Source of the DNA: Candidatus Moraniibacteriota bacterium
GTDB taxonomy: Bacteria; Patescibacteriota; Minisyncoccia; Moranbacterales; UBA2206
Direction: 5' to 3'
Length of the DNA stretch: 64,000 nt
Assembly (NCBI GenBank): GCA_030645735.1
Contig: JAUSNP010000004.1
Span: 10,739-74,738 of the forward strand
Shown here: positions 6,285-32,218 of the stretch, piece after piece
Layout: the number at the start of each line of letters is the position of its first letter
Position numbering within the stretch: the first letter of the stretch is position 1
Notes under the pieces: model-generated
Databases searched by the model: none
Told to the model about the DNA's origin: nothing
What the model saw: only the letters and a program-made list of their open reading frames with translations
Program-made: the position numbers and the translations under genes

Positions 6285-9200
6285 TTATTTTTCTGCCACA
6301 ATCCACCAATTGAAGTTGATTTCTTTCGGCGCCAAAATTGCATCAAGTCGGTCCACTCCGACTTCAAAGCCTTTGCCTATATCTGTGTTTTTCACATAAA
6401 TAACTTGATTGTCAGTTGAACCAATTGGCGTGATATAAATCTTTGAATCCGCGCTAACTGCACTAGTTTTCACAACGACAACACTTTTATCCGCCACAAT
6501 CACCGCCTCACCAATCGTGGCTGCGGTTTTGTCATTGACTGCAATAGTCAGCAAGCCAGTCTCAGTGATTTGCGAGGTCAATTTACCAACAATTGTAATG
6601 TCGCCAGCCTTGCTAGTGTCTGTGATGCCTAGGAGTTGGTTCAAATAATCTATGGATTGGGTGTTGGCATCAATTTGCGCAATGTTGACTGGTGTAGCAA
6701 TTTGCGATTGCAAGGCGGTGATTTGTTGTTGCAAAATATCTGTCAGCGCCTGTAGAGACGCAATGCTTTGCGTCTGCGCATTGATTTGCGTATTGATATT
6801 TGCAACTTGTTTGGTGAATGTATCTTGGTTATTGGTGATGGTGGTTAGGTTTTTTTCAATTGAACCAAGTTGAGTGTTAACAGAATTTTTCAAATCCGTG
6901 ACAGTTGAAATGTTGCCAGTTAGTTGCAAGTTTAGATTTTCAATCTGAGTTTTTTCTTCTTGGAACATTTGATTTTTCACATCCGCAAATCTAGCGTAGA
7001 GTCCATGGATAGCGCCGTCTTGGAGAGTTGAGTCGGCATATGGTATGAGCAGTTCGCCTGGGGTAATTTGTTGAGTTAGATAGTTTTGGAAATGGGTCAG
7101 TTCATTTGGAGTGACACCTTTGAGAGTGTTTTTGGAAAGCTGGTTGAGTGGAGCAACTTCGTAGTTTGGAATTTGGAAACCTCCAGTCTTAGCGATGTAG
7201 CTCCAAGTGCCTCCAGTTCTAAAGTAGAGTCTTTCAGTGCCTAGAGTTGTGTCCAGACAAGTGAGACCGTCAGTAGCTGTGGTGAAAGTTAAATCAGTAC
7301 AAGCGCCGGCGTTGGTTTTTTGGATGAAGCCGTCGGAGGCAAGAGCTTGGCCAGTTGCACCTACTTTAAATTTATTTACTGAATTAACATTGAAATCTAA
7401 GAAGTCGCCAGTGAATGAGCCAGTGCCAGAAGCCATGTCGGCGTGAAATAAGTCTGCTGTTTTATCAGAGGTATTATGCGACACATAAATAGATTCATCA
7501 CTCGTAGAGTCACTGTCATCAATATAGAGACCGTATCCAGCGCCTGTTATGGTAGCATAAAAAGCTGGGGCTCCCCCTGATTCAGTGACCCAAACCCCAA
7601 CGTTGCCCGCAGAATCATTGATTTCTACACCACCATCATTCCTTACTTTGAATACTGAATCGCTATTCACATTGAAATCCAAAAAATCGCCAGTAAATGA
7701 ACCTGTGCCAACAGCCATGTTGGCATTGATTAAGTCACCTGATTTAGCGGATGTATTATGTATAAAATACAATGAGTTAGCAGTGGTAGAACCATAATCA
7801 TAGCCAAAAATAAAACGATTATTGTCTTGCTGATAGAGTTTCAAATCGTCATTTCCCCCAGTTGCATAAAGATATGCCACCGTACTATCATCTGTAGTAA
7901 ATCCGCCATCTGTCACATAAAGTGGGTCTGAGCCGGTATCAGTATTTGGAGTTATGCGAAGTTCACCACTGTGCCCGACTGTGAATGACGCAACATTGTT
8001 TTTTCTAAAATCCAAGAAGTCACCAGTGAATGAACCTGTGCCAACAGCCATATTAGCATTGATTAAGTCACCGGTTTTAGCGGAAGTTGAATGATATGTA
8101 TTAAAAGTATTATTTGAAGCTGAAGCAGTATCATAGACATACATAGCTGGAACATCAGCACCTAATTGTGCATAATATGCGGTGTTGCCATAGGACACGA
8201 TAGATTCAATTATGCCGTTACCTTCCATTAAATTTGCATCCGTAGCTCGCAGTGCATATGAGCCAGCTGAATTGATATATGTATCACCAGATGAACTAAC
8301 TTGAAATACCTTAGGATTAACGCCGACGTTACCATTATTAAAATCCAAGAAGTCACCAGTGAATGAGCCTGAACCACCCCCAAAATTCATATTAATGCCG
8401 TCGCCAGAAAAAGCAGAGTTTGATTGAGTTAATCCAATCAAATTATTGGAAGTAATGGAGTAAGATATCCCAGTGATTAATGGTGCATTATTACTATTGC
8501 CTGCATTGTAACTAACCAAGCTCAAAACTGGCGCAGCATAATTGCCAGAATATTCAAATGTTCCCAATCCCCAGCCATTGCCTTGGACATTGAAGGCATT
8601 GCCGTCTATATTGTCATTTGGGTCATTGTAATTAAGATAAAAACCATTGCCATTTTTTCCTATTTCCGTATTGATGTATGAACCATCGCCATAATAGAAA
8701 TTATTATTATAGCCTAGACCAGATACCGCATTATATTGCGCCTCGCTCAACGAATACCGCGTCATCCAACCACTTGAATTAAGACTTGGATCATTCCCCC
8801 AACCATCTCCATTTTCATATGCAAAAAAGGCGAACGGATAATCATATTGCCATTGCCCATAATCACTATCTGGTCCATCATATGTGACAGTGATTGCATT
8901 TCGAATTGGGTTTTGAATAATTACCGCCCCATCAAAACCATTCGTGTCTTCATACAAACCAGACAAGGACCGTCCGCCACCTATAGATCCGTCATTACCG
9001 AAAGTTAAAATTAAGCGCTCAGCGCTATTGAAAGTATCACGGCTACCCACAATCTTTATCCGATGAGTATAAGGGATTGTAGCTTCAATTTCTTGCGCAG
9101 TATTTCCGTTTGAAGTAGTTGTTGCAATGGCAGGTGTGTTTCGATCACTTGGCAAAAAGATAAAAGCTGAGATGCCACCAAATGCTGGATCATTGGACTC

Positions 9201-10784
9201 ATAGCTATTATATGATTCATGGTAACCTGAAATTATCTCAATCGTGTCCTCTCCGTTAGAGTACGCAATATATGGATTACTAGGACTAGTCAAAGACGGA
9301 TCAAGTCGATAGACTTTACCCTCGCCTTTGGCATATTCCCATTTAGTGTCCGTGCCGGTGGAAGACAAAAACATCCCGTCTGTTCCGTTGGAATTGGTGC
9401 TGTCAAAGAGTCCATTTTCTAAGCGCATATTGCCGGCGATGTGCAAAGCTTCGGTTGGACTGGAGGTTCCAATTCCAAATTGTTTGCTGGCGTTGTCCCA
9501 GAAAAGACTGGCATCCGCCCCAAAGGTTCCGGCATTGTTAAATTGCAACTGACCAATGGAACCGCCTGGTACCGCATTGACACTAGCCCAGCTCAAGTTG
9601 CCATCACCATCAGTAGTCATAACTTGATTAGGATTGCCATCCACCGCTGGCAAGGTATAGGCGCCGGCAATGATGATTGTTTGTGTATGCAAAGTTCCTT
9701 GCACTTCAGCGTCATGGGAAATGACTAGATCACCAGTGTTTGTTAGGCCGTGATTTGAATTGTTCTCACCAATGAAAATCGGTGAAGCGCCAATCAAGCG
9801 ATGGGTATAGATCGTGTTCCAGCTTTTGTCAGAGTTGCCGAGATTGTAGGAGAGGTTGTTGTCTGGGATGATGTCCTTGGTGGTAGTGGTGCCTTCGACA
9901 GTCAGGTCAGCCTTGTCACCGGACAGAACAAGCGCGCCACTGACTTCTCCGCCAGTATTAGACAACTTAGTTTTTACATCCGTAGCCAGTTGTGTTGAGG
10001 CTTTATCAATTGATTGGGAGAAATCTTCTTTGACTGTGGAGAGATCGGCGGATAAATTGGAGTTAGAAGATGAGATTTCTTTAAATAGATTACTTTTGGT
10101 ATCGCGAATAGCCTTACCTAGAAGACCTGTTAAGGAAGCTTGCTGAGTTGAATCGTCATTAGAACTAAAGACACTTGCTATTGCCTCTCCAATGGGAGCA
10201 TAGGCTTGTGGATAGGCAAAAGCTGAGAAAGAAAACAATAGGAAAAAGACCAGGAAAGCTGAGTAGAGGATTTTTTTAGTTAGATGACTAATTGAGTCTT
10301 GGTATTCACCGATGCCTTTTTGGTACAAGCGGACAAAGAAAAGAACTAGCGAGCCAGTTACGGTTAAAACACCGATGTAGGCCATTATGATGAAGGCGTC
10401 GTCGAGGGAAAGACTGGTTACGAAGTGGAATAGTGGATAGATTAAGAAGAATACCGGTTTCCATTCAGAAGGGAAAAAGACTATAAATAGGATTAGGAAA
10501 GCTAGGGAGATTTTGAGAAAGTTTTTTAGAAAAACATCATTCTTTTGCATCAACACATACATGGCGTGATCCTGCTTGTCTTTCAGATACATCCACAAGG
10601 CAAAGCCGATTATCAATACCAACGGCATCAGAGCGATAAAGGTGACAATGAAGTTGGCAAAAAACTCAAACTGCGCCAATGAGCGCAAAATGACAAATTC
10701 AGCAAAGACTACGAAGATTAGGAAACGGCTTTTGTGTAAGTTTAATTTTTGTAGAAGTGAATATTGTTCGATTGCTTCGGACAT
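6285..10784 (-). CDS. Giant surface protein 1 (1499 aa). It has an N-terminal multi-TM anchor and G/N/S/T-rich beta-helical repeats, and ends in the conserved C-terminal module shared with the other two giant proteins.
   Basis: A long uninterrupted ORF. N-terminal hydrophobic helices. Four internal repeats of the ...TSAK(S/T)GDLINANMAVGTGSFTGDFLDFNVNS... type. The C-terminal roughly 330 aa is almost identical to the C-termini of the ORFs at 18281-24610 and 24875-32218. Confidence 0.8.
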   Translation of the reverse strand: MSEAIEQYSLLQKLNLHKSRFLIFVVFAEFVILRSLAQFEFFANFIVTFIALMPLVLIIGFALWMYLKDKQDHAMYVLMQKNDVFLKNFLKISLAFLILFIVFFPSEWKPVFFLIYPLFHFVTSLSLDDAFIIMAYIGVLTVTGSLVLFFVRLYQKGIGEYQDSISHLTKKILYSAFLVFFLLFSFSAFAYPQAYAPIGEAIASVFSSNDDSTQQASLTGLLGKAIRDTKSNLFKEISSSNSNLSADLSTVKEDFSQSIDKASTQLATDVKTKLSNTGGEVSGALVLSGDKADLTVEGTTTTKDIIPDNNLSYNLGNSDKSWNTIYTHRLIGASPIFIGENNSNHGLTNTGDLVISHDAEVQGTLHTQTIIIAGAYTLPAVDGNPNQVMTTDGDGNLSWASVNAVPGGSIGQLQFNNAGTFGADASLFWDNASKQFGIGTSSPTEALHIAGNMRLENGLFDSTNSNGTDGMFLSSTGTDTKWEYAKGEGKVYRLDPSLTSPSNPYIAYSNGEDTIEIISGYHESYNSYESNDPAFGGISAFIFLPSDRNTPAIATTTSNGNTAQEIEATIPYTHRIKIVGSRDTFNSAERLILTFGNDGSIGGGRSLSGLYEDTNGFDGAVIIQNPIRNAITVTYDGPDSDYGQWQYDYPFAFFAYENGDGWGNDPSLNSSGWMTRYSLSEAQYNAVSGLGYNNNFYYGDGSYINTEIGKNGNGFYLNYNDPNDNIDGNAFNVQGNGWGLGTFEYSGNYAAPVLSLVSYNAGNSNNAPLITGISYSITSNNLIGLTQSNSAFSGDGINMNFGGGSGSFTGDFLDFNNGNVGVNPKVFQVSSSGDTYINSAGSYALRATDANLMEGNGIIESIVSYGNTAYYAQLGADVPAMYVYDTASASNNTFNTYHSTSAKTGDLINANMAVGTGSFTGDFLDFRKNNVASFTVGHSGELRITPNTDTGSDPLYVTDGGFTTDDSTVAYLYATGGNDDLKLYQQDNNRFIFGYDYGSTTANSLYFIHNTSAKSGDLINANMAVGTGSFTGDFLDFNVNSDSVFKVRNDGGVEINDSAGNVGVWVTESGGAPAFYATITGAGYGLYIDDSDSTSDESIYVSHNTSDKTADLFHADMASGTGSFTGDFLDFNVNSVNKFKVGATGQALASDGFIQKTNAGACTDLTFTTATDGLTCLDTTLGTERLYFRTGGTWSYIAKTGGFQIPNYEVAPLNQLSKNTLKGVTPNELTHFQNYLTQQITPGELLIPYADSTLQDGAIHGLYARFADVKNQMFQEEKTQIENLNLQLTGNISTVTDLKNSVNTQLGSIEKNLTTITNNQDTFTKQVANINTQINAQTQSIASLQALTDILQQQITALQSQIATPVNIAQIDANTQSIDYLNQLLGITDTSKAGDITIVGKLTSQITETGLLTIAVNDKTAATIGEAVIVADKSVVVVKTSAVSADSKIYITPIGSTDNQVIYVKNTDIGKGFEVGVDRLDAILAPKEINFNWWIVAEK

Positions 10785-10875
10785 AATATGTGAGTGTTTT
10801 TATTTTTATTCTTATCCTATTATACCACAGAAAAGAGATGTTGCGGATGTGGATAACTTGGTTGTGTGAGAATCA

Positions 10876-10903: not shown

Positions 10904-10933
10904 TTTGGTTCCAATTCAGAAAATATATCTGAT

Positions 10934-13839: not shown

Positions 13840-13957
13840 GTTTTGGCGGCGTCCTACTTTTCCTAGACTGATGCCTAGATATCATCGGGGCTGAAATGCT
13901 TAACTGCCGAGTTCGGAATGGGATCGGGTGTTGCCATTTCGCTAGAACCACCAAAAC
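13840..13957 (-). rRNA. rrf: 5S rRNA
   Basis: The reverse complement reads GTTTTGGTGGTTCTAGCG...CCGAACTCGGCAGTTAAGC...GGACGCCGCCAAAAC. It has terminal helix I pairing and conserved 5S loop motifs. Confidence 0.85.
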
Positions 13958-14394
13958 AATGCTCTTTTTTCGCAGTCCGTAAAGTCCCAAGTCCGTAAAG
14001 TTTTTAAAGTCACATACTTTATGGACTTTTGACTTTATAGCCTTTCGACTCTAGAACGCGTTTATAACTGGTGCAAAAAACAAAAATGAAAAGATCGCAA
14101 TCGCAATTACAGAGAAGATGATGAAGATAAACTTCAAGCTTTCTCCGTATTTTTTAGAATACGATTTCATATTATTATTGTCCATTGTAAATATACTAAT
14201 ACAACTATTTATTCAGTAGATCTTGTGCACTCAGTTGAATTTCGCCATAAGCAAACTTCAACCGAGATAGTTTAGAAACTATTAACCACTAACCCACGCA
14301 TAACGCGTAACGCATATCGTGAAACATATATGAAATACGTTCTACGATTTGCGCTCTACGATCTGCGATTTATTTAAATTTAAGAGTGTAATTT

Positions 14395-17570
<3,176 letters not shown>

Positions 17571-24200: not shown

Positions 24201-24610
24201 TTTCTCGTTAGTTGTTTGACTGTTTGCTGATAAGTGCCTCGACCGATTTGATAGAGCCGGATGACATAGGTGATGAGTCCGATGGCCAGGGTGATCACTG
24301 CTACATACGCAGCCAGAAAAAAATATGTTTCTAAGGAAAAGAAGTTGCGAAAAATAGTGAAGAAATTTAGCAATGGCGCCCAAGCATTTGGAAAAAAGAC
24401 GATAAACAGAATGAGGATAGCGAGGGAGAGTTTGAAAGCCAGCTTCAAGAAAAAGCCATGTTTTACGAGAGCTTCATACAGAATGTGATCTTTGCGGTTT
24501 TTAATGTATAGCCAGAGAGCAAAGGAGATAAGTAGAATAAAGGGTGAAACAGCAATGGTGCTGGTGATCAGATTAGCCAGTGATTCATATTGAGAAAGGA
24601 ATTTGAGCAA
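18281..24610 (-). CDS. Giant surface protein 2 (2109 aa). It has an N-terminal multi-TM anchor, about 15 GNVGIGTT(S/A/N)P beta-helical repeats, and ends in the conserved C-terminal module.
   Basis: A long ORF. Its N-terminal module (GEISGALTLSGSEGDLTVEGTTTTKDIIPNDNLSYNLGNSSKSWNTIYAHRLIG...) is homologous to that of giant protein 1. It carries repeated DNA 24-mers cgtcgtcccgatgccgacgttgcc. The C-terminal roughly 330 aa is shared with the other two giant proteins. Confidence 0.8.
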   Translation of the reverse strand: MLKFLSQYESLANLITSTIAVSPFILLISFALWLYIKNRKDHILYEALVKHGFFLKLAFKLSLAILILFIVFFPNAWAPLLNFFTIFRNFFSLETYFFLAAYVAVITLAIGLITYVIRLYQIGRGTYQQTVKQLTRKSLYATFFIFIFLLLFSVFTYPQAFYPITDAVADGMFTVSQGRIALTKLSGEQLQANSSFFNLAKSAINKTSDNLSGALDSTRTDLSKTIASSKETLTQSITDTSKNLTESINGKVSSDGGEISGALTLSGSEGDLTVEGTTTTKDIIPNDNLSYNLGNSSKSWNTIYAHRLIGASPIFIGNNNSKHGLTQTGDLVISNDAEVQGTLHVETILIAGAYTLPTSDGSADQLIATDGNGNLSWTAKIIPGGTTGQLQWNDNGTFASDSELFWNNTDKRLGIGTNSPSTKLQVTGTVKADAFMLPGGIYLTSDSVSTNYWGETAGNIYRETGNIGMGTNTPTETLDINGRVHLRQTTAPVDTVDKLYNVAGDVYWNGLKLGENFWTKTGSDVAYNLAGNVGIGITPTTKLEVAGTVRATNFYDATNGAYLTPGSVNANWWGESGGNIYRETGDVAIGSNDANGYRLHVDGNVYGTGSLDLAGNLNVNSGKLFVDATTGNVGVGTVSPGYPLQVTGNIRSSGSVWSDTNIRANGILTQSNGANFTLNTLTTGAIIFSPGTTEAMRIISGGNVGIGTTAPNQKLEVNGNLRFSDTSQFFEWTNGTKVYFDNFYSAAADYSWKSWNGSSVINNMLIKASNGNVGIGTTAPVSSLQIGSVGSTGYASQKIAWGDGTRAGSINITSAGSFLYSSVGQIFAPGSSEKMRITPEGNVGIGTTSPGSPLSVAGSFSGANTIMIATNNVTSAGSIGIMQGLTPNISNGGNAYMVLGKEASANNRGGVAYNHVSDGSASNYINIGSFYGATAGSGINVLANGNVGIGTVSPSTSLHLVSDSGIRVSATQSGDQYISIKGGPTSRIESFYGLTLRAIGGYGAGGTYPITFSTGNTSEVERMRIANNGNVGIGTTNPLAKFSVGDASYSYARILDTSSGSGYGGLDLYRQATLITHLETNGVSYIKKYDNSGTVFAVDNINGNVGIGTTNPGAKLNVKSGGTDAWGFLVNSSDSQRLAGIYEESDTRATFAFYNATDSQTIRLDTGGNSYFNGGNVGIGTTAPGSKLHIAGGDFQIGPVGGSQIYLRGITGGDLSFNRNPSTGVISNASAFSYQLHRTESTTAESDYLGWQVYNPAGAGVTTSALVINGNGNVGIGTTSPVSQFQIDGVSAGIRLRRNAGNEPFILLTNTTETSGGQIRGLDGAYGLRFTDPFSAEYMRINSSGNVGIGTSAPGAKLDVNGTTLTSKLSSWGSTYTSGGNYLFTNSFGGATIEQTPPMNDYIGNQLMFADAKGFAITSSGSISSVSSAFRQGDTYATITNTTLPIVVEVTGSIPSDTDVGSQRVFLQAHGNISGHLLVEIKKFDDTWVTLADEDISIASKAYWFSQPVTNVAPYPAAWAIKGVRYSITSLTEATTYIRQLGWYKKNGFIYPFLSEYNPSAYGNLTFNQTGNHDITASSGTLRLGTHTLLGAVTGNAQSITGLGQLTVDNLRIDGNTIDATSGAITISPTAGSNLNIGLSGAGDFAVNTNQLYVDTSAGNVGIGTTSPTYNLHVVGNAFVSTVMNQNQLSVGAIGGLSGVRAYVLTASDTVKGLVIRANSATQSANLQEWQDSVGNVLSVVDKNGNIGIGTVTPTAKLDVVGQAIASDGFIQKTNAGACTDALFTTDTDGQICLDSTAGVERMYFRTGGAWSYIAKTGGFQIPNYEVAPLNQLSQSTLKGVTPNELTHFQNYLTQQITPGELLIPYADSTLQDGAIHGLYARFADVKNQMFQEEKTQIENLNLQVTGNITTVAELKNSINTQLGSIEKSLSEITNNQDTITKQISNINTQITNDEIRIATLENLATTLQAQITTLQSQIATPVNIAQIDANTQSIDYLNQLLGITPTSKVGDITIVGKLTSQITETGLLTIAVNDKTAATIGEAIIKAGDTSVKVDTTAISADSKVFVTSEKPVEIGVNTIQKGASFKIEIGKVLLEDLQINWWIVDKK

Positions 24611-24825
24611 AGCGAAGATGCAAAAACCACAAAGACCAGAAAACGGCTTGTGTGTAGATTGTATTTTTCAAAAACATTGCCTCCGTTAGCTTGCATGAGT
24701 TTTTGTTTTTTATAGCCAATATCTGGCAATGTATGATTGCTCAGAAAAGGCTTTTATCTGATTGAATTATACCACAAAAATGGGTATGCAGGGGGGTGTG
24801 GATAACTTTGTGAGGGGGGAGTGAA

Positions 24826-24856
24826 AAAAGCGATTGCCTTATAGCAATCGCTTTTT
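24826..24856 (-). terminator. Intrinsic terminator downstream of giant gene 3
   Basis: aaaaaagcgattgc-cttata-gcaatcgcttttt gives a perfect 9-bp stem. Confidence 0.6.
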
Positions 24857-24874
24857 ATATCCTAAGTTGTGAGG

Positions 24875-27800
24875 TTATTTAGAATCAACCAACCACCAGT
24901 TGAATTTCAGATCTTCAACCGAAGGAATTTTAATTTTCACGATAAAGCCCTCTCCGGCATTTATCTTTGTAACGGCCAACGGTTGATCAGTGACTATCAT
25001 TGAAGTCACAAAAACCTTGCTATCCCCACTCACCGCTTTCGTGTTGACTGTCACCGAAGTATCCCCAGCCTTGATAGTGGCTTCTCCGATAGTAGCCTTG
25101 TCTTTGTTTTTTGGATCGACGGTGATGATGATGGAGCCAGTCTCAGTGATTTGCGAGGTCAATTTACCAACAATTGTAATGTCGCCAGCCTTGCTAGTGT
25201 CTGTGATGCCTAGGAGTTGGTTCAAATAATCTATGGATTGGGTGTTGGCATCAATCTGGGCGATGTTGACCGGTGTAGCAATTTGGGATTGCAAGGTGGT
25301 GATTTGTTGTTGAAGAGTTTCTGTTATTGTCTGTAGAGACGCAATATTTTGCGTCTGTGCGTTGATTTGATCATTGATATTTGAAATTTGTTTGGTGCTT
25401 GTATCTTGGTTATTGGTTATTTCGCTTAGACTTTTTTCAATCGAACCAAATTGGGTGTTAACAGAATTTTTTAGTTCTGCCACTGTGGTGATGTTGCCCG
25501 TGACTTGCAGATTTAGATTTTCAATCTGCGATATTTGCTCTTGGAACATCTGATCTTTCACATCGGCAAATCTGGCATAGAGTCCATGGATAGCTCCGTC
25601 TTGAAGAGTGGAGTCAGCGTATGGGATGAGGAGTTCTCCAGGAGTGATTTGTTGAGTTAGATAGTTTTGGAAATGAGTGAGTTCATTGGGAGTGACACCT
25701 TTGAGGGTGTTTTTAGAAAGTTGGTTAAGTGGGGCGACTTCGTAGTTGGGAATTTGGAAACCTCCAGTCTTAGCAATATAGCTCCAAGTGCCTCCAGTTC
25801 TAAAGTAGAGTCTTTCAGTGCCTAGGGTTGTATCAAGACAAGTGAGGCCGTCAGTAGCTGTGGTGAAAGTTAAATCAGTACAAGCGCCGGCGTTGGTTTT
25901 TTGGATGAAGCCGTCGGAGGAGGTGGTTTGGCCGACAACATCCAGCTTGGCAGTTGGATTGCTTGTACCAATCCCAATATTTCCAGCGGATGTTATTCTC
26001 ATTTGCTCTGCAACAACAGTGCTACCAGTTCTAAAAACTAAATCAGTTGGAACACTATCAGCAACTACAGTTCCATTTACTATTGCAAAAATAGTAGCTC
26101 TCTGCGTATAGGCTGTTCCATATCCAAAAAAACCTACAGAACCAATATAGTCTCCATTAGCTAAAGTAGATGGTGACAATATTGTCCCCCTTGATTTTCT
26201 TAGATTTAAAAGTGCAGAATGTACGCTTGAAGCATGTTGTGACGAAGTTATACCTCTGTCTGCACTAACAGTGTCAGAAGATGTTACATGTAATTCTCCA
26301 ACTGGAGAATTAGTACCAATACCAACATATCCAGTCGTACTATTAACAATAAAATTGTGTGAGTTAGTCCCTCTGCTTACCAAAAAACCTTTGTTTGCTG
26401 GGATATAAAATCCTGCATACGCTCCCTCCAATGTAAAAGAATCATTAATTCCTACTTGAAAATCTGCATTTTCTGTCCATGCTGTTGGTTTAAATCTTAG
26501 CGCTGGATAAGTTGAAGAAAGTTTTATATTACCAAGTATGTCTAATTTTTCAGCAGGGACAGTTACACCCATTCCTATTCTCCCATTACTTGTTATTCTC
26601 ATACCCTCGACTGGTGTACCCGCACTATAAGAATTTAGCAATAATGAAGATGTATTATCTGCCCCAACTCTTAACGCCTGAATTGAACCAACAGCATTCG
26701 CTACACCAGCACTATCTTTAATTTGGAAAGTGAGAGAAGAGCCAAATCCATCAACCATATCACCTGACGTAGTGTGTCTTACAAACAAAGCTGAAGCTAC
26801 GGAATTTGTAATAGCAGTTGCCCTTTCTAGCGTAATTATTTCAGAAGCACCACTAATTACATGTAACTTGCTTTCAGGAGCAGTCGTGCCGATGCCGACG
26901 TTGCCAGTTGGTTTAATTGTCATAGCAGTAATCTCGGCAGTATTAGAAGAGACTCTAAATTGCATGTTTGCTGGATTATAAAAAGTAGAACCAGCAGTGC
27001 CATCTTGTTGAACAATAATTCTAGCAGCTTGACCAAAAGTATTAACAGAAGTAACTCCGCCAAATTGAAAAATACCTAAATAATCTCCATCTTGTGTTGT
27101 AACCATAGAACCAGCTGTTGTTCCACGTGTTTTTAACCAACTTCCATAGGAAGCATTACCATCATTACCAAATTTTGTAATTTGAAATTGGTCTCCTAAA
27201 CCACTACCAGCTACTTCTAGTTTATATGCGGGCGCCGTCGTCCCGATGCCGACATATCCGTTTGTTCTTAGTAAAGTCATTACCGTGGATTTTAAAGCAC
27301 CTGCGTCCGTTCGACTGACAAATTCTAAATTTGTGCCAACATCGCTACCAGATTCTGCTACACTATTTGCTCTGATTATCCACCTAGAAAGTCCCCCTGA
27401 AGAAAACATCAAATCACGTGACTGTCCCGCTGCCGAATTAATCATAGCTGATACATATCCACCGTTACCATCTACCTGCAGTAAAGATGTGGGCGTTGCT
27501 GTTCCAATACCAACACTACCATTGAATGCCACTATGTCAGTTGAAAAATCTCCATAAATCAAAGGCGAGGCAGTGTTAGAGTTGTCGATATATAATTTGT
27601 TTGAACCAGTTTCGCTGTAGCCAGACTTATATCCAATAAATATATTGCCTGAACCAAGTACTGAATATCCAGCTTGGTAGCCAACTCCTGTATTATAGTT
27701 GCCAATGATGTTGGAGTAGAGAGTATCCACACCATTAGCAGTATTGAAGGAGCCTGTGGTATTAGAAAAAAGAGTATGCCTACCATTGGCAGTATTATAG

Positions 27801-30800
27801 GAACCTGTGGTATTGACATAGAGAGCATTCATACCATTGGCGGTGTTTTGAAGCCCCGTAGTGTTAGTATAGAGTGCTTGTCCACCATTGGCAGTATTTT
27901 CTTGGCCCGTAGTATTGAATCGGAGAGCTCTATATCCATTAGCTGTATTTACGCCACCCGTAGTATTAGAGTTTCCAGCCTGATAACCCGTGAAAGTATT
28001 CCAATTTCCCGTATTAACATTCCCTGCTTGATAGCCAAGAAAGGTTGAAAATCTTGCATCATCAAAATTAATCAGTCCACTAACTTGCAAGCTATTATTT
28101 GGCGTTGTAGTTCCAATGCCGATGTTGCCTGTTGCATTTACTACCGTTAATAAAGCTGTGCCGCTTGAATTACTAACAATTATATTTCCACCTAACTCTG
28201 GTGCAAATAAAAAATTATTGCTGTTGTCGATTCCAAAATACCCCTGACGAGCCGTATTATTATAAAATTCGATATAATTCCAACCGCCCGTGGTCTTACG
28301 CAATCTAATAGGATTATCAGTTGTGCTCGAAATTTCTAATTTTGCCCCTGGCGTCGTTGTCCCGATGCCAACATTTCCACTGCTTGCTTGAATATACATA
28401 CGATCAGTGGCACCGGCGTTGAATCGCATATTTATTGAATTAGCCGAGCCCATACTTAGTGTGCCGCTAGTGCTATTTCCATCATGCGTAAAAAGCGCAG
28501 CCCCGCCAAGACGGACATATTGATTCTGAGCTAGATTTAAATCGCCACCGCCAATGTCCAACTTGTATGCTGGATTCGTCGTTCCAATTCCAACATTGCC
28601 TCGCAAAATTGTTTCCACGACAGAGGCGTTGCCCAGCACTACTTGATTGCTAGCGGTGGTATAGGCGCCATTGCCCAGTGCCATGGAATTTGTAGCATCA
28701 ACTTTTTGCGAAGCATTGTTGCCAGCACTATTTCCCAAAAATGTATTGTATGTCCCAGTTGTAATTGAAAATCCAGATTGATAGCCCATAGCCGAATTGT
28801 TATCAGCAATAGTATTGCGCAAAGAATATGGACCAATTGCTACATTTGAAGAACCCAAGACATTCATTCTAAGCGCTTCTGAACCAACTGCTACATTATA
28901 TGCTCCAGAAGTATTGGCATACAGAGTATATGAACCAATTGCTGTATTCATCATCCCCGTGTTATTTGGCCCAAGAACATAAACTCCCAAAGCAGTATTA
29001 TAATTGCCAGTATTATTGACACTCGCTCCAGCGCCTATCAATGTTGAGTTCTTCGCACTATCAAAATTAATCAATCCTGCCACCTGCAAAAGATTATTTG
29101 GCGTAGTCGTGCCAATACCCAAGCTTCCATTGACGGCCAAAATATTGGTTGAAAAATCTCCATAAATCAAAGGCGTGGCCGTGTTGGAATTGTCGATATA
29201 CAATTTGTCTGATCCAGTTTCGCTGTAACCAGCTTGGTAACCAAGAAAGATGTTGCCAGAGCCAAGCGCTGAATATCCAGCTTGATAACCAAAGCCAATA
29301 TTATTGCTGTTGGTACTAATGTTCCTAAGAGTTTCCTGGCCTATGGCATAATTATTAGAACCAGTCGTGTTTGAAATAAGCGCATACAAGCCAATAGCGA
29401 TATTACTGTTTCCAGAAGTATTTGAATAAAGAGCCATATTGCCCATGGCGGAATTATATGATCCAGTAGTGTTAGAATACAATGCCAGTGGCCCAAAGGC
29501 AGAATTATATGAGCCAGTAGTATTAGAAAAAAGGGCGCTATTTCCCAAAGCTGAATTATAAAATCCAGCAATGTTTGCACGAAGCGCTTGGTTTCCTAGA
29601 GCTGAATTATAACCACCTGTAGTGTTTGAAAAGAGAGCTAGATAGCCAATTCCCGTGTTATCATTATTCGTCAAATCATCCACTTTTCCAGCATCTTCAC
29701 CGAAATAGGTTGACCGTCCTAGCCCAGTTTGTGAAACCCGTCCGTTAATGGTTAGTTTTGCTCCAGCAGTTGAAGCGCCGCTAATTCCTACTGTGCCATT
29801 TATGGTCAGTGCATCGGTTGAAAAATCTCCATAAATCAAAGGCAACGCTGTATTGGAATTGTCGATATACAATTTGTTTGAACCAAGTTCATTATAGCCA
29901 GCGTTATAGCCAACAAAAATATTGCCCGAACCAACAGAATTTTGAAATCCTGCCCCATTGCCAACACCAACGTTGCTATTTCCAGTAGTATTGCCCCGCA
30001 AAGCATCTACGCCGACAGCCGAGTTATAGCTACCCGTCGTATTGGAATAAATAGCATACACTCCGAAAGCAGAGTTGTATCCACCAGCAGTATTATATCT
30101 GAGAGCTCTCATCCCAAACGCAGAATTACTCCAGCCATCAATGTTATACATCATGGACTGATAACCTACAGCTACATTATTTTGACCAGCAGTATTGCGA
30201 TTAAGAGTTTGATATCCGACTGCAATATTATTTGAAGCTGTATTACTATAAAGAGTACCTGTTCCAATGGCAATGTTATAACCACCTGTGTTAGAATATA
30301 GCGCCTGATATCCCACAGCTATATTGTCTTGACCCGTGGTATTTAACGCCCCAGCCTGATAGCCCACAAAGGAGTTATGAATTCCAGCATTCGCATTCCC
30401 CGCTTGATAACCAAGGCTTGTGGAATATAGGGAGTTATTAAAATTTATAAGTCCCGCTACTTGAAGAAAATTATTTGGCGATGAAGTTCCAATGCCAAGA
30501 TTACCAGCAAAATATCCATTACCGCTAGCATCGAGCTTGAATTTATTGACGCTATTAACATTGAAATCCAAGAAGTCGCCACTGAATGAGCCAGAGCCGT
30601 TGGCGAAATTCATATTGATACCATCTCCAGAAAAAGCGGAGGTTGTCTGAGATAAACTCAAAGCATTTCCGGTTGTTACTCCACTCTGATATAAATATAT
30701 CCCGCTTGAACCTGATGCAACAGTCGATAACTCAAGCGCGGTATTGCTTATATTTTGATTTATTGTAAGGGCTGCGCCTTGTGCATTGTTTGTAAAAACT

Positions 30801-32218
30801 GCCCTGCCTCTTGGCGCAATAGTGAAAACATCCCCACCACCGAGAGTTGCAGGTTGTGATATTTTAAAGACACTCTGGCTAACTCCTTCCTTCCCTTGAA
30901 TATGCAGATTGGCGGATGGCGTACTCGTCCCAATCCCCACATTCCCCTCAGCATAAATATTTTTCACATTCAAATCCCCCAACTCCTCCGTATTCTCTCT
31001 TTGAAATAAGTTAAATTGTGACAGAGTGGCGTCCCAGACCAAGGCTGCATAGCCGTTTAGGCTCGAGCGATAGAAACGCAAGCCCATAGTTTCATCAACT
31101 GTTGAATCAGTGTTGATGGCAAAGTATTCACTGGTAGTTCCGTTTAGGTCTGTTCCACCTACACTCATGTTGTCTACATACAAGCTAGACCAGTGATTGG
31201 TAGCTGAGCCCAAATTAAGTCCCGTGGTTGATGGAATCAAATTGGAATTGATGGTCACATTCTCACCCGAGGTTCCCAGTGTGGCCTCACCATTGATGAT
31301 GAGTGATCTAGCATTGATAGTTCCAGCAACATCCAGCGCATAGGCAGGATTGTCTACGCCGATGCCGACATTGCCGTTGTTTAAAATCACCATCCGTTTA
31401 ACATCGGCGATTTTGATGAAAACATCACCTATGCCATCGGCGTTGGAGTCAGCGATGACCAATGCGTCGTCCGTATTGGAAATGTTTTGAGAAGAGATCA
31501 AATCTCCCCAAGCCGGCAAGCCGTTGATGACGCTTAGGACTTGTCCATTAGTACCAATTTTTAAATTAGACAGTGTGTTAGCAGCTGAAGCAAAAAGGGT
31601 GTCGCCGACGGTGTAGGTGGTGAGACCAGTGCCACCAAAGTTTGTGGTGACAGCATCGCCTTCCCAGGTTCCCGTGGCAATCACGCCGAGCGTTGTGATG
31701 CTGGGTAGAATTTTAGCATCGATCTTTCCACCTTTAGCTAGTTGCACAATGTTGCCTTCGGCTGTGCCAAGAGTGGCGCCACCGACTGAGTAGGAATCTG
31801 AAGCCAATGGCACAGCACCAATCTTTTTTCTGGGCACCATTTCACTGTCTGTGTTGATGCGGATACCGATGTAGTAATCATTTTCAGAAAAGTTCAAATC
31901 GGCCGGCAAAGGAGTTTCTTCCCCGAGGAAAGCGCCGATAGAACCGTTTTCAATTTTCACCTTTTGGGTTTCCTCCCAAACTCTGGCTCCAGCATCAGCA
32001 TTAGATGGATAACCATCTGTCTTTGTGCGGTCAGTGGTGTAAATGGCAAAACGGATGTCATATTCCCCATTGGGAATTTCTTTGTTTTTGTTGTTGAGGA
32101 TGTAGGCGGAGACATCGAGTTTTTTGATGGCTTGCGCGTGATTGGAAAAAAACAAAAGACTGCCTACTGTTGTTAGTAGAGCGACAGTTGCAATTAGTTT
32201 TGTTTTTGTTCTAAACAT
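24875..32218 (-). CDS. Giant secreted surface protein 3 (2447 aa). It has a signal peptide, tail-fibre-like NTxG/AxG beta-helical repeats, and ends in the conserved C-terminal module.
   Basis: The N-terminal signal peptide is MFRTKTKLIATVALLTTVGSLLFFSNHAQA. There are long runs of the YxSxxGxxAL..NTTGxxN(T/S)A.G repeat type seen in phage tail-fibre/beta-helix proteins. The SGDFLDF module and the C-terminal roughly 330 aa are shared with giants 1 and 2. Confidence 0.8.
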   Translation of the reverse strand: MFRTKTKLIATVALLTTVGSLLFFSNHAQAIKKLDVSAYILNNKNKEIPNGEYDIRFAIYTTDRTKTDGYPSNADAGARVWEETQKVKIENGSIGAFLGEETPLPADLNFSENDYYIGIRINTDSEMVPRKKIGAVPLASDSYSVGGATLGTAEGNIVQLAKGGKIDAKILPSITTLGVIATGTWEGDAVTTNFGGTGLTTYTVGDTLFASAANTLSNLKIGTNGQVLSVINGLPAWGDLISSQNISNTDDALVIADSNADGIGDVFIKIADVKRMVILNNGNVGIGVDNPAYALDVAGTINARSLIINGEATLGTSGENVTINSNLIPSTTGLNLGSATNHWSSLYVDNMSVGGTDLNGTTSEYFAINTDSTVDETMGLRFYRSSLNGYAALVWDATLSQFNLFQRENTEELGDLNVKNIYAEGNVGIGTSTPSANLHIQGKEGVSQSVFKISQPATLGGGDVFTIAPRGRAVFTNNAQGAALTINQNISNTALELSTVASGSSGIYLYQSGVTTGNALSLSQTTSAFSGDGINMNFANGSGSFSGDFLDFNVNSVNKFKLDASGNGYFAGNLGIGTSSPNNFLQVAGLINFNNSLYSTSLGYQAGNANAGIHNSFVGYQAGALNTTGQDNIAVGYQALYSNTGGYNIAIGTGTLYSNTASNNIAVGYQTLNRNTAGQNNVAVGYQSMMYNIDGWSNSAFGMRALRYNTAGGYNSAFGVYAIYSNTTGSYNSAVGVDALRGNTTGNSNVGVGNGAGFQNSVGSGNIFVGYNAGYNELGSNKLYIDNSNTALPLIYGDFSTDALTINGTVGISGASTAGAKLTINGRVSQTGLGRSTYFGEDAGKVDDLTNNDNTGIGYLALFSNTTGGYNSALGNQALRANIAGFYNSALGNSALFSNTTGSYNSAFGPLALYSNTTGSYNSAMGNMALYSNTSGNSNIAIGLYALISNTTGSNNYAIGQETLRNISTNSNNIGFGYQAGYSALGSGNIFLGYQAGYSETGSDKLYIDNSNTATPLIYGDFSTNILAVNGSLGIGTTTPNNLLQVAGLINFDSAKNSTLIGAGASVNNTGNYNTALGVYVLGPNNTGMMNTAIGSYTLYANTSGAYNVAVGSEALRMNVLGSSNVAIGPYSLRNTIADNNSAMGYQSGFSITTGTYNTFLGNSAGNNASQKVDATNSMALGNGAYTTASNQVVLGNASVVETILRGNVGIGTTNPAYKLDIGGGDLNLAQNQYVRLGGAALFTHDGNSTSGTLSMGSANSINMRFNAGATDRMYIQASSGNVGIGTTTPGAKLEISSTTDNPIRLRKTTGGWNYIEFYNNTARQGYFGIDNSNNFLFAPELGGNIIVSNSSGTALLTVVNATGNIGIGTTTPNNSLQVSGLINFDDARFSTFLGYQAGNVNTGNWNTFTGYQAGNSNTTGGVNTANGYRALRFNTTGQENTANGGQALYTNTTGLQNTANGMNALYVNTTGSYNTANGRHTLFSNTTGSFNTANGVDTLYSNIIGNYNTGVGYQAGYSVLGSGNIFIGYKSGYSETGSNKLYIDNSNTASPLIYGDFSTDIVAFNGSVGIGTATPTSLLQVDGNGGYVSAMINSAAGQSRDLMFSSGGLSRWIIRANSVAESGSDVGTNLEFVSRTDAGALKSTVMTLLRTNGYVGIGTTAPAYKLEVAGSGLGDQFQITKFGNDGNASYGSWLKTRGTTAGSMVTTQDGDYLGIFQFGGVTSVNTFGQAARIIVQQDGTAGSTFYNPANMQFRVSSNTAEITAMTIKPTGNVGIGTTAPESKLHVISGASEIITLERATAITNSVASALFVRHTTSGDMVDGFGSSLTFQIKDSAGVANAVGSIQALRVGADNTSSLLLNSYSAGTPVEGMRITSNGRIGMGVTVPAEKLDILGNIKLSSTYPALRFKPTAWTENADFQVGINDSFTLEGAYAGFYIPANKGFLVSRGTNSHNFIVNSTTGYVGIGTNSPVGELHVTSSDTVSADRGITSSQHASSVHSALLNLRKSRGTILSPSTLANGDYIGSVGFFGYGTAYTQRATIFAIVNGTVVADSVPTDLVFRTGSTVVAEQMRITSAGNIGIGTSNPTAKLDVVGQTTSSDGFIQKTNAGACTDLTFTTATDGLTCLDTTLGTERLYFRTGGTWSYIAKTGGFQIPNYEVAPLNQLSKNTLKGVTPNELTHFQNYLTQQITPGELLIPYADSTLQDGAIHGLYARFADVKDQMFQEQISQIENLNLQVTGNITTVAELKNSVNTQFGSIEKSLSEITNNQDTSTKQISNINDQINAQTQNIASLQTITETLQQQITTLQSQIATPVNIAQIDANTQSIDYLNQLLGITDTSKAGDITIVGKLTSQITETGSIIITVDPKNKDKATIGEATIKAGDTSVTVNTKAVSGDSKVFVTSMIVTDQPLAVTKINAGEGFIVKIKIPSVEDLKFNWWLVDSK

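What the first reader, a model, noticed from the sequence alone, without database searches (positions are those of the whole stretch)
6285..32218. Three paralogous giant fibre-like surface proteins with a near-identical C-terminal cassette
The ORFs of 1499, 2109 and 2447 aa, all on the same strand, end in the same roughly 330-aa module. This module runs ...SDGFIQKTNAGACTD...GGFQIPNYEVAPLNQLS...TPNELTHFQNYLTQQITPGELLIPYADSTLQDGAIHGLYARFADVK..., followed by a coiled coil and then a beta-rich tail. Only the last roughly 40 aa diverge. At the DNA level the 3' ends (for example 6600-7460, 18570-19330, 25180-25930) are about 85-95% identical, which suggests ongoing gene conversion or cassette exchange. 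The N-terminal modules (..DLTVEGTTTTKDIIP..NLSYNLGNS.KSWNTIY.HRLIG..) and the internal SGDFLDF and GNVGIGTT repeats are also shared. The repeats resemble phage tail-fibre/beta-helix architecture. In an episymbiotic CPR-like organism these are prime candidates for host-attachment adhesins, possibly subject to variation. Nothing in the sequence names their function.
Basis: seen in the sequence. Interest (0 to 1): 0.8.

Follow-up and report, generated by a model that had tools for sequence, protein, structure and literature searches.

The report
Tail-fibre-like surface fibres, shared tip cassette
A Moranbacteria (candidate phyla radiation) genome carries three very large, probably membrane-anchored surface proteins built from phage tail-fibre parts that all end in the same undescribed 350-residue module, which makes them plausible but unproven host-attachment fibres.

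Summary
Three minus-strand genes (1499, 2109 and 2447 aa) end in one 348-355 aa cassette.

The cassette has three parts. First comes a 126-aa domain with no Pfam or solved-structure relative, found in 922 protein clusters. Then comes a roughly 140-aa coiled coil and linker. Last is an 83-90 aa beta-sandwich head related to tailspike C-terminal caps and H-type lectins.

DNA identity is 79-89%, not 85-95%. The divergent end is about 90 aa, not 40.

The shafts of B and C are homologous to phage tail fibres and to Bdellovibrio MAT fibres. The shaft of A matches nothing. A and B have multi-pass membrane N-termini and C has a signal peptide. Neighbouring genes are housekeeping genes and rRNA, not phage genes.

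The near-identical protein sequence is held mainly by purifying selection (core dN/dS 0.03-0.10, dS 0.5-0.8). Silent-site mosaicism and long identical tracts (up to 121 nt) show past gene conversion.

A second Moraniibacteriota genome shows the same within-genome homogenised core and coil. Heads resemble those of other genomes more than their own paralogues.

Best reading: cell-anchored trimeric fibres with a common C-terminal assembly-and-tip cassette. Adhesion to a host is inferred, not shown.

New variant of a known kind. Interest 0.55.

The parts
6285..10784 (-). Gene A, 1499 aa (NCBI MDO8240698.1, annotated hypothetical)
   Evidence: ORF list and translation. Identity of the record.
10203..10784 (-). 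A residues 1-194: multi-pass hydrophobic N-terminal region, about 5 membrane helices
   Evidence: Hydropathy scan. Lys-rich loops at residues 67-91 and 153-171 fit an N-in/C-out topology; this is my inference.
9513..9953 (-). A residues 278-424: N-proximal domain shared with B (DLTVEGTTTTKDIIP..NLSYNLGNS.KSWNTIY.HRLIG)
   Evidence: blastn 75% over 368 nt. tblastn 50% aa over 454 residues.
7353..8507 (-). A residues 760-1144: four repeats of about 100-110 aa carrying GDFLDF. No match to any library.
   Evidence: Motif positions 810, 921, 1032 and 1126. Internal blastn repeats. No PHROG, Pfam or PDB hit.
6975..7352 (-). A cassette core domain (residues 1145-1270)
   Evidence: Profile search found 922 clusters. 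AF2 model pLDDT 80.6. No PDB fold match.
6558..6974 (-). A cassette coiled coil and linker (residues 1271-1409)
   Evidence: AF2 gives a long helix at module residues 151-240. Only weak coiled-coil hits.
6288..6557 (-). A cassette beta-sandwich head (residues 1410-1499)
   Evidence: AF2 pLDDT 81-94. Pfam K1-lyase_C 2e-4, 22.2 bits, below the cut-off of 27. 61% identical to the head of P0005 from another organism.
18281..24610 (-). Gene B, 2109 aa as annotated (MDO8240702.1). The true 5' end is probably the frameshifted ATG at 24696.
19349..23293 (-). B shaft: 14 GNVGIG-type repeat units, tail-fibre-like
   Evidence: PHROG 9942 at 1.8e-44 and 18345 at 3.5e-30. Bd2133 (8OND) at 2.9e-5. Motif count.
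18950..19327 (-). B cassette core domain (residues 1762-1887)
18533..18949 (-). B cassette coiled coil and linker (residues 1888-2026)
18284..18532 (-). B cassette head (residues 2027-2109)
24875..32218 (-). Gene C, 2447 aa (MDO8240703.1)
32129..32218 (-). C signal-peptide-like N-terminus (MFRTKTKLIATVALLTTVGSLLFFSNHAQA)
   Evidence: Translation. A single hydrophobic segment at residues 6-26.
27509..30496 (-). C residues 575-1570: three blocks of short NTxxG-type repeats, each ending in LYIDNSNTA.PLIYGDFST
   Evidence: PHROG 23837 at 4e-79, 6002 at 1e-65 and 4636 (tail spike) at 5e-55. Motif at residues 783, 1006 and 1542. TRF arrays.
25934..27508 (-). C residues 1571-2095: beta-helix repeat units homologous to Bdellovibrio MAT fibres
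   Evidence: Bd3182 (8OJN) 7.7e-16, Bd2133 (8OND) 1.3e-12, Bd2439 (8OL4) 1.6e-10 and Bd1334 (8OML) 2e-7, aligned over 80-170 residues. PDB codes mapped to proteins in PMC10769870.
25556..25933 (-). C cassette core domain (residues 2096-2221)
25139..25555 (-). C cassette coiled coil and linker. Its 3' end holds most of the 121-nt tract identical to A (25135-25255 versus 6554-6674), which runs a few bases into the head.
24878..25138 (-). C cassette head (residues 2361-2447)

Best explanation
A, B and C are chromosomal genes for very long, extracellular, probably trimeric fibres. They are assembled from phage tail-fibre and tail-spike building blocks and held to the cell by the N-terminus. A and B use a multi-pass membrane domain. 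C has a signal peptide followed by a beta-rich domain.

Each fibre has its own shaft but ends in a common C-terminal cassette with three parts:
- a strongly conserved 126-aa domain;
- a coiled-coil neck;
- a small beta-sandwich head.

I propose that the conserved domain and the coiled coil act as the trimerisation and registration unit from which the shaft folds, and that they form the distal end of the fibre. The variable head, and possibly the variable shafts, would carry ligand (probably glycan) specificity.

The conserved stretch also serves as a homology handle. Recombination between paralogues has repeatedly homogenised the core and coil within a genome while different, older head types are kept.

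Shown: the architecture, the homologies, the selection regime and the mosaicism. Inferred: trimer formation, surface display, and binding to a host cell.
For: **Fibre nature**
- PHROG tail-fibre and tail-spike families hit B and C.
- The solved Bdellovibrio MAT fibres hit C over whole repeat units. B hits them only weakly and over shorter stretches (8OND 2.9e-5).

**Extracellular and N-anchored**
- A and B have hydrophobic N-termini and C has a signal peptide.
- The relative P0028 also starts with a membrane anchor.
- The only two cysteines in the core form a perfectly covarying pair in the family: 21 sequences have Cys-Cys and none has a single Cys.

**Not a prophage**
- Neighbours are gyrB, FtsW/RodA, ribosomal protein L25 and 23S+5S rRNA.

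**The cassette is a widespread C-terminal unit**
- 922 clusters have E<=1e-3. Most place the domain 170-260 aa from the C-terminus and end in xFNWWIVExK.
- One bona fide siphophage tail module (major tail protein, tape measure, tail fibre) ends its fibre protein in the core domain.

**Head**
- 14 of 29 family heads hit Pfam K1-lyase_C, a tailspike C-terminal beta-sandwich that forms a trimer dome (PMC8822698).
- 10 of 29 hit H_lectin.
- The AF2 head model has pLDDT 81-94.

**Selection**
- Core dN/dS is 0.03-0.10, coil 0.16-0.22, and head dN is 0.34-0.51.

**Exchange**
- Site-pattern runs: 104 observed against 194+-8 permuted. Silent sites only: 47 against 76+-5.
- The longest concordant tracts are significant for all three pairs, up to 121 nt.

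**Concerted evolution in two genomes**
- The coil is 79-86% identical within a genome and about 25% between genomes.
- A's head is 61% identical to a head from another organism but 37-41% identical to B and C.
Against: - No oligomer prediction or experiment was possible, so the trimer and the tip position are inferred.
- In one clade of relatives (P0027, P0028, P0029, P0031) a complete Peptidase_S74 autoproteolytic chaperone lies about 110 aa upstream of the core. There the cassette would be cut off the mature fibre. That fits a pure assembly role better than a tip role.
- In the K1 lyase the homologous C-terminal sandwich is a structural cap. Sugar binding was mapped to the beta-helix.
- B and C heads do not reach Pfam significance.
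- Protein A's shaft has no detectable relative.
- The hydropathy count of 5 versus 6 membrane helices is not settled.
- All data come from one MAG assembly.
Confidence: 0.55

Rival explanations
1. The cassette is a C-terminal intramolecular assembly chaperone. It nucleates trimer folding of whatever shaft lies upstream and is then removed or plays no further part. Specificity lies entirely in the variable shafts.
For: - It is C-terminal, very strongly conserved and contains a coiled coil.
- It sits behind many unrelated shaft types.
- A clade of relatives places it directly after a Peptidase_S74 cleavage domain, so it would be released together with that chaperone.
- The homologous K1-lyase C-terminal sandwich is a structural dome, not the sugar site.
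Against: - There is no S74 domain and no conserved SDxxxK motif in A, B or C.
- No invariant Ser/Lys pair exists in the family.
- Heads fall into old, distinct types kept across genomes, and some are H-type-lectin-like. That is unexpected for a disposable chaperone.
Confidence: 0.2
2. The polarity is reversed. The shared C-terminal cassette is a sorting or anchoring module that fixes different surface proteins to the cell's own wall or S-layer.
For: - A C-terminal module shared by otherwise different surface proteins of one genome is the usual signature of anchoring or sorting domains (general knowledge).
- C has only a cleavable signal peptide at its N-terminus.
- The core has invariant Arg, Asp, His and Trp residues, as a site for a conserved ligand would.
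Against: - A, B and relative P0028 already carry N-terminal membrane anchors.
- In the phage homologue the domain is at the C-terminal end of a tail fibre protein, which in phage fibres is normally the virion-distal end (general knowledge).
- The extreme C-terminal head is the variable part.
Confidence: 0.1
3. These are phage or tailocin structural genes, meaning prophage remnants, rather than cellular surface proteins.
For: B and C give strong PHROG tail-fibre and virion-structural hits. The core domain occurs in one phage tail fibre.
Against: - No capsid, tail, tape-measure or lysis gene lies near them.
- The flanks are rRNA, gyrB, FtsW and L25.
- The proteins have membrane-anchor or signal-peptide N-termini.
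- Only 1 of 2.9 million viral contigs carries the core domain, against 37 cellular loci.
- The only mobile-element genes found in the window lie about 3-16 kb upstream of gene C, at about 35-48 kb, and encode a restriction-modification system and a recombinase, not virion parts.
Confidence: 0.03
4. The shared cassette is an assembly artefact, such as a collapsed or chimeric repeat in the MAG.
For: The sequence comes from a single metagenome assembly with no second copy in public data. Exact matches of up to 121 nt exist between copies.
Against: - The copies differ at 11-21% of nucleotides and have unique flanks on both sides.
- Reading frames are intact across all junctions.
- An independent genome shows the same arrangement.
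Confidence: 0.02

Closest known systems
Bdellovibrio bacteriovorus mosaic adhesive trimer (MAT) fibres (Caulton et al. 2024, PMC10769870)
   Same: - Chromosomal, non-phage, multi-paralogue fibre proteins built from phage-like beta-helix units with GNVGIGT..P..L.V.G repeats.
- Direct sequence homology of C (E down to 8e-16) and, weakly, of B to Bd3182, Bd2133, Bd2439 and Bd1334.
- Mosaic domain shuffling between paralogues.
- The owner lives on other bacteria.
   Different: - MATs share a conserved 130-aa N-terminal domain and vary at the C-terminal tip. Here the C-terminal cassette is the shared part and the shafts vary.
- A and B use a multi-pass membrane anchor.
- None of the three has S74.
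- The core domain and coiled-coil neck are not described for MATs.
- These proteins are 1.5-2.5 times longer.
- Protein A has no MAT homology.
Phage tailspikes and tail fibres with a C-terminal beta-sandwich cap (for example Klebsiella phage K1 lyase, Pfam PF24146; PMC8822698)
   Same: Head-family members hit K1-lyase_C (14 of 29, best 5e-9). A's head scores 2e-4. In the K1 lyase the domain forms a trimeric dome closing the fibre.
   Different: - A's score is below the Pfam cut-off, and B and C are not detected.
- Here the sandwich follows a coiled coil rather than a catalytic beta-helix.
- No lyase domain is present.
Peptidase S74 intramolecular chaperone domains of endosialidases, phage T5 pb1 and S74-type MATs
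   Same: It is a C-terminal, conserved module behind variable trimeric fibres and includes helical trimer elements. It co-occurs with the cassette in relatives P0027, P0028, P0029 and P0031.
   Different: There is no Pfam S74 hit, no SDxxxK motif and no conserved Ser-Lys pair in A, B or C. The cassette is about 350 aa long and ends in a variable head.
Neck-and-head receptor-binding proteins (lactococcal phage RBPs, reovirus sigma-1, adenovirus fibre); comparison from my own knowledge
   Same: The order is shaft, trimeric helical neck, then small beta-sandwich head. Heads are exchangeable behind conserved linker sequence. Weak coiled-coil matches to sigma-1 were seen (E 0.002 for C).
   Different: There is no significant sequence or fold match. 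The resemblance is architectural only.
Trimeric autotransporter adhesins (YadA/BadA type); comparison from my own knowledge
   Same: Very long modular trimeric fibres with short head-type repeats and coiled-coil stalks. Paralogue arrays are prone to recombination.
   Different: - There is no C-terminal beta-barrel anchor and no Pfam YadA or Hep_Hag hit at E<=0.1.
- The anchor is N-terminal.
- The host lineage is reported to lack an outer membrane (general knowledge, not tested here).

Membership tests
MAT superfamily (Bdellovibrio) | Shaft of beta-helix/prism units homologous to Bd3182, Bd2133, Bd2439 and Bd1334 | tested here: met
   Met for C: 7.7e-16, 1.3e-12, 1.6e-10 and 2e-7 over 80-170 aa. 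Weak for B: 2.9e-5. Not met for A: no hit at E<=0.1.
MAT superfamily (Bdellovibrio) | Conserved beta-rich domain of about 130 aa directly after the signal peptide (PMC10769870) | tested here: inconclusive
   C has a signal peptide followed by a beta-rich stretch. A search with it found only Patescibacteria proteins and no Bdellovibrio protein, and that search needs shared words. A and B have membrane helices instead.
MAT superfamily (Bdellovibrio) | Variable C-terminal tip, either S74 or an alternative adhesive domain | tested here: not met
   The C-terminal 260 aa are the most conserved part among the paralogues. Only the final 83-90 aa vary.
MAT superfamily (Bdellovibrio) | Trimeric assembly and display on the cell surface | not testable with these tools
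   Only monomer AF2 models were possible.
Peptidase S74 intramolecular chaperone | Pfam PF13884 match with the SDxxxK catalytic motif at the cleavage site | tested here: not met
   No PF13884 hit in A, B or C at E<=0.1. The SDGFIQK of A, B and C places Lys one residue further from Ser than the SDxxxK motif does, and its Ser-Asp is not conserved in the family. Relatives P0027-31 do have a true S74 domain, upstream of the cassette.
Phage tail fibre / tail spike proteins (PHROG 9942, 18345, 4636, 23837) | Significant profile match | tested here: met
   B: 1.8e-44 and 3.5e-30. C: 4.3e-79, 5.3e-55 and 5.2e-25. A: none.
Phage tail fibre / tail spike proteins (PHROG 9942, 18345, 4636, 23837) | Encoded in a virion structural module | tested here: not met
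   Neighbours are rRNA, gyrB, FtsW/RodA, L25 and an O-antigen-ligase-like protein.
K1-lyase_C / H-type lectin beta-sandwich | Pfam PF24146 or PF09458 match above the gathering score | tested here: inconclusive
   A's head scores 22.2 bits against a cut-off of 27 (E 2e-4). B and C give no hit. Among aligned family heads, 14 of 29 hit K1-lyase_C and 10 of 29 hit H_lectin. Foldseek lists H-type lectins (HPA, SLL-2) among its top hits, but with E>0.2.
Trimeric autotransporter adhesins | C-terminal YadA-type beta-barrel anchor and Hep_Hag/HIM head motifs | tested here: not met
   No such Pfam family at E<=0.1. The C-terminus is a soluble beta-sandwich in the AF2 model.
Diversity-generating-retroelement target proteins | Nearby reverse transcriptase and a template repeat nearly identical to a variable C-terminal region | tested here: not met
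   No reverse transcriptase among the 30 window ORFs scanned; ORFs 36193-36642 and 43572-44561 had no hit, and a few other ORFs of at least 100 aa, such as 40789-41145, 57971-58354 and 60949-61353, were not scanned. The only repeats of the cassette are the paralogues themselves, at 52-69% nucleotide identity in the head.

The most novel reading that the evidence does not exclude
The core-plus-coiled-coil cassette may be a new, Patescibacteria-wide counterpart of the S74 and foldon C-terminal assembly domains. It may be kept near-identical among the paralogues of one genome because the fibres share it functionally. One version is that different paralogues co-assemble into mixed trimers. Another is that recombination within the shared neck swaps heads. 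Either would give an ultra-small episymbiont a combinatorial, recombination-driven repertoire of host-recognition tips.
Probability: 0.15. Interest if true: 0.8.

Novelty: new variant of a known kind. Interest (0 to 1): 0.55.

Why it matters
How candidate-phyla-radiation bacteria recognise and hold on to their hosts is largely unknown. Type IV pili are the only mechanism with experimental support (for example PMC12206443, seen).

These genes show that a Moranbacteria genome devotes about 18 kb to three fibres built from the same parts that phages and the predator Bdellovibrio use to recognise bacterial surfaces. They define an unannotated C-terminal domain family (922 clusters at 50% identity) that marks such fibres across Patescibacteria.

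The pattern of a homogenised neck with old, exchangeable heads gives a concrete, testable model for how specificity could be diversified. The cassette profile can serve as a search handle for candidate host-interaction proteins in uncultivated lineages.

Tried and rejected
**Searches that found nothing useful**
- Pfam and NCBIfam on the three full proteins gave only sub-threshold coiled-coil noise.
- AFDB50 was not available.
- PDB profile searches with the cassette, core and head alignments all gave E>=0.078.
- A search with A's N-terminal 460 aa found 4 weak partial hits, so the membrane anchor is not a recognisable family.
- A search with C's N-terminal domain found only Patescibacteria fragments, with no link to the Bdellovibrio MAT N-domain.
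- A metagenome scan for close relatives found one distant head, so there are no population data.
- Each of the three proteins is a singleton at 90% identity.
- Two literature searches for a description of such fibres in Patescibacteria found nothing relevant in the held library.

**Ideas considered and dropped**
- S74 autoproteolysis in A, B or C: the SDGFIQK resemblance is not conserved in the family.
- DGR-driven variation: no reverse transcriptase or template repeat.
- Simple-repeat phase variation: TRF shows no homopolymer or short-repeat arrays inside the genes beyond protein-level repeats.
- Prophage origin and assembly collapse: see the rival explanations.

**Left open**
- I could not verify the 'Bdellovibrionales' and 'Gammaproteobacteria' labels of some MAGs that carry the cassette.
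Full report
**1. Observation**

The window holds three long minus-strand ORFs at the stated coordinates: A 6285-10784 (1499 aa), B 18281-24610 (2109 aa) and C 24875-32218 (2447 aa).

All three end in one module that begins at GQA(L/I)ASDGFIQKTNAGACTD. It covers A 6288-7352, B 18284-19327 and C 24878-25933.

At the DNA level the shared stretches are:

| Pair | Identity | Length |
|---|---|---|
| A-C | 88.9% | 786 nt |
| A-B | 82.0% | 851 nt |
| B-C | 79.4% | 962 nt |

The divergent end is the last 83-90 aa, not about 40. Identity there is 37-41% over the last 72 aa.

The N-terminal module is shared by A and B only (50% aa identity over 454 residues).

The repeats are shared pairwise. GDFLDF occurs 4 times in A and once in C. 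GNVGIG-type motifs occur 14 times in B and 10 times in C.

The copies have unique flanks and hundreds of differences, so a collapsed repeat is excluded.

**2. Source and surroundings**

The three proteins are exact matches to MDO8240698.1, MDO8240702.1 and MDO8240703.1. These are 'hypothetical proteins' of a Candidatus Moranbacteria MAG on a 127-kb contig. Each is a singleton cluster at 90% identity.

A 23S and a 5S rRNA gene lie between A and B. Other neighbours are ribosomal protein L25, FtsW/RodA, gyrB and an O-antigen-ligase-like TPR protein.

No virion gene is nearby.

**3. Anatomy of the three proteins**

- A and B start with a hydrophobic region of about five membrane helices. An N-proximal domain follows a predicted helical linker.
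- C starts with a signal-peptide-like segment.
- The shafts differ.
  - B consists of GNVGIGT..P..L.V.G units.
  - C has three blocks of short NTxxG repeats, each closed by LYIDNSNTA.PLIYGDFST, followed by GNVGIGT units.
  - A has four repeats of about 100-110 aa carrying GDFLDF.
- PHROG profiles call B and C tail fibre, tail spike or virion structural protein, with E-values from 1.8e-44 to 4e-79. They find nothing in A.
- Against PDB sequences, C matches the Bdellovibrio MAT fibres across whole repeat units of 80-170 residues, not just the glycine motif:
  - Bd3182 at 7.7e-16
  - Bd2133 at 1.3e-12
  - Bd2439 at 1.6e-10
  - Bd1334 at 2e-7
- B matches weakly at 2.9e-5. A does not match.

**4. 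The cassette**

Alignment with nine relatives splits the cassette into three parts.

*(i) The core (126 aa).*
- Invariant family positions are G29, R41, R45, W50, G58, D112 and H116. The block GFQIP and the motif DGAxHGxY are nearly invariant.
- A profile of this domain finds 922 clusters at E<=1e-3 among 1.84 billion representatives, with 62 at E<=1e-30.
- Most of these are large proteins of up to 5166 aa. The domain usually sits 170-260 residues from the C-terminus, and many end in xFNWWIVExK.
- It has no Pfam model.
- It has no PDB sequence relative.
- Its two cysteines covary perfectly: 21 Cys-Cys sequences and no singles. This fits a disulfide in an extracytoplasmic domain.

*(ii) The coiled coil.*
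- AF2 predicts one long helix.
- Only insignificant matches to trimeric viral and adhesin coiled coils were found.

*(iii) The beta-sandwich head.*
- The AF2 model has pLDDT 81-94.
- Among 29 aligned family heads, 14 hit Pfam K1-lyase_C (best 5e-9) and 10 hit H_lectin (best 1.3e-7).
- A's own head reaches 22.2 bits, below the cut-off of 27.
- In the K1 lyase structure this domain forms a trimeric dome that closes the spike. Sugar binding was mapped to the beta-helix (PMC8822698).

**5. Distribution**

In one genome per species, the core pattern found 37 loci.
- Most are in Moranbacteria and other Patescibacteria.
- Some are in MAGs labelled Bdellovibrionales or Gammaproteobacteria. I could not verify those labels.

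Only one of 2.9 million viral contigs carries the domain.
- That contig is a high-GC siphophage tail module with a major tail protein, a tape measure and a 652-aa tail fibre protein.
- The tail fibre protein ends in the core domain.
- So the core belongs to the phage fibre toolkit but is overwhelmingly cellular.

**6. Evolution of the cassette**

*Divergence and selection.*

| Part | dN/dS | dS | dN |
|---|---|---|---|
| Core | 0.03-0.10 | 0.47-0.78 | |
| Coil | 0.16-0.22 | | |
| Head | | saturating | 0.34-0.51 |

Across 36 codons (YLTQQ...ADVK) all three proteins are identical although dS is 0.39-0.91. The near-identity of the proteins is therefore maintained chiefly by purifying selection, not by very recent conversion.

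*Evidence for exchange.*
- The pair that is most similar changes along the alignment in long blocks. There are 104 runs of site patterns against 194+-8 in permutations.
- At silent sites of invariant codons there are 47 runs against 76+-5.
- A Sawyer-type test on variable sites gives significantly long concordant tracts for every pair:
  - A-C: 26 sites, 121 nt, p<1e-4
  - A-B: 17 sites, p<1e-4
  - B-C: 8 sites, p=0.003
- Past gene conversion is therefore supported.

*A second genome.*
- A Moraniibacteriota contig (JBAQNM010000010.1) also carries three cassette genes.
- In both genomes the coil is 79-86% identical within the genome but about 25% identical between genomes.
- The C-terminal half of the core is 97-100% identical within a genome and 72-81% between genomes.

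*Heads behave in the opposite way.*
- A's head is 61%, 51% and 44% identical to heads from other organisms (P0005, P0026, P0004).
- It is only 37-41% identical to B and C.
- So the core and neck evolve in concert inside a genome, while older head types are retained and shuffled.

**7. Mechanism**

The best-supported reading is a set of N-terminally anchored, extracellular, probably trimeric fibres.
- The conserved core and the coiled coil would provide trimerisation and register for whatever shaft lies upstream, and would form the distal end.
- The variable head, the variable shafts, or both would provide ligand specificity.
- The conserved stretch doubles as a recombination handle.

Only the architecture, homologies, selection and mosaicism are shown. 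The trimer, surface display and host binding are inferred. Overall confidence is 0.55. That these are surface fibres of phage-like build I rate at about 0.85, and host attachment at about 0.45.

An important counter-observation concerns relatives P0027, P0028, P0029 and P0031.
- A complete Peptidase_S74 domain (53-62 bits) lies about 110 aa upstream of the core.
- In those proteins the cassette would be released on self-cleavage.
- This keeps alive the rival that the cassette is mainly an assembly chaperone (0.2).

The other rivals are weaker:
- Anchoring to the cell's own envelope (0.1). This is weakened by the N-terminal anchors and by the phage homologue.
- Prophage genes (0.03).
- Assembly artefact (0.02).

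**8. Comparison with known systems**

The nearest known system is the Bdellovibrio MAT superfamily (PMC10769870).
- Shared features are shaft homology (C strongly, B weakly, A not at all), multi-paralogue mosaicism and an owner that lives on other bacteria.
- The logic is inverted, however. MATs keep the N-terminal domain and vary the tip. Here the C-terminal 260 aa are the shared part.
- Two of the three proteins here use a membrane anchor.
- None has S74.
- The core and neck are not described for MATs.

I therefore do not file them as MAT members. They are related fibres with a different terminal organisation: a new variant of a known kind.

S74 chaperones, trimeric autotransporters and DGR targets each fail a defining feature that I tested.

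**9. Limits**
- The data come from a single MAG.
- No multimer modelling was possible.
- AFDB50 was unavailable.
- No close relatives exist for population analysis.
- The literature searches found no prior description in the held library, which is not exhaustive.

Noticed in passing
window 24561-24696 (minus strand): Gene B's 5' end looks frameshifted. An ATG at 24696 opens a 42-codon ORF, MQANGGNVFEKYNLHTSRFLVFVVFA..., that parallels A's N-terminus (LHKSRFLIFVVFA) and then stops. The annotated TTG start at 24610 is in another frame, and a T5 run lies at the switch. This could be a sequencing error, a real mutation or slippage.
   Followed up: partly
window 13841-17563 (minus strand): A 23S rRNA gene (3182 nt, about 257 nt longer than the 2925-nt Rfam model, so it carries an insertion) and a 5S gene sit between paralogues A and B. 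No 16S gene is present anywhere in the 64-kb window, so the rRNA genes are unlinked.
   Followed up: no
window about 35300-48500: A low-GC (0.35) island carries a trypsin-like protease, a type III restriction helicase/endonuclease (38109-40784), a DNA methylase (41372-43534), about 2.3 kb holding only short ORFs of at most 127 aa (44561-46857), and a large serine recombinase (46857-48443). The recombinase's 3' end overlaps tRNA-Asp, which sits next to two tRNA-Met genes. It looks like an integrated mobile element.
   Followed up: partly
window 53695-63811 (minus strand): A complete type IV pilus cluster is present: four pilin-like genes with N-methylation motifs, a prepilin peptidase, PilC, PilT-like and PilB ATPases, and PilO. 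A Fib_succ_major-domain protein is also there. Pili are the only experimentally supported host-attachment device in CPR bacteria, and this cluster lies about 22 kb from the fibre genes.
   Followed up: partly
window 3729-6233 (minus strand): Directly downstream of gene A is an 834-aa protein with a sub-threshold O-antigen-ligase (Wzy_C) match (24.9 bits, cut-off 31.7) and TPR repeats. It might glycosylate surface proteins such as the Ser/Thr/Asn-rich fibres. This is speculation only.
   Followed up: no
relatives P0027, P0028, P0029, P0031 (for example P0027 residues 888-1371): A full Peptidase_S74 self-cleaving chaperone domain sits about 110 aa upstream of the core-coil-head cassette. S74 would then not be terminal, and a 480-aa fragment would be released on cleavage.
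   Followed up: partly
L038 4324-6282 and several core-domain family members: A subset of core domains, including the one in the phage tail fibre, carries a CxxC...HxxC insertion between the two halves of the domain. This looks like a zinc-ribbon-like variant.
   Followed up: no
L002-L004, L008-L010, L012, L013, L021; L007, L018, L030, L031: Several cassette-bearing MAG contigs are labelled 'uncultured Bdellovibrionales' or 'Gammaproteobacteria', yet their core domains are as close to the Moranbacteria ones (49-54%) as other Moranbacteria are. This is either mislabelling or sharing of the cassette across predatory and episymbiotic lineages.
   Followed up: partly
family members in alignment A5; P0172: Three of 25 cassette proteins, and a relative of C's N-terminal region annotated 'MerR family transcriptional regulator', carry MerR-type HTH Pfam hits. 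This is unexpected in a secreted fibre protein and remains unexplained.
   Followed up: no
L019 2-11122: In a Saccharibacteria-labelled contig the fibre gene appears split. A 2205-aa ORF ends ...RTTGNHPYLVKMN, a 522-aa ORF and a gap follow, and a 642-aa ORF carries the cassette. This may be an inserted element.
   Followed up: no
window 24822-24860 (minus strand): Read by eye, a GC-rich hairpin (GCGATTGC...GCAATCGC) followed by a T-run lies just after C's stop codon, and a TGGTATAAT motif lies upstream of B. This suggests that C and B are separate transcription units. The automatic terminator scan did not report the hairpin.
   Followed up: partly
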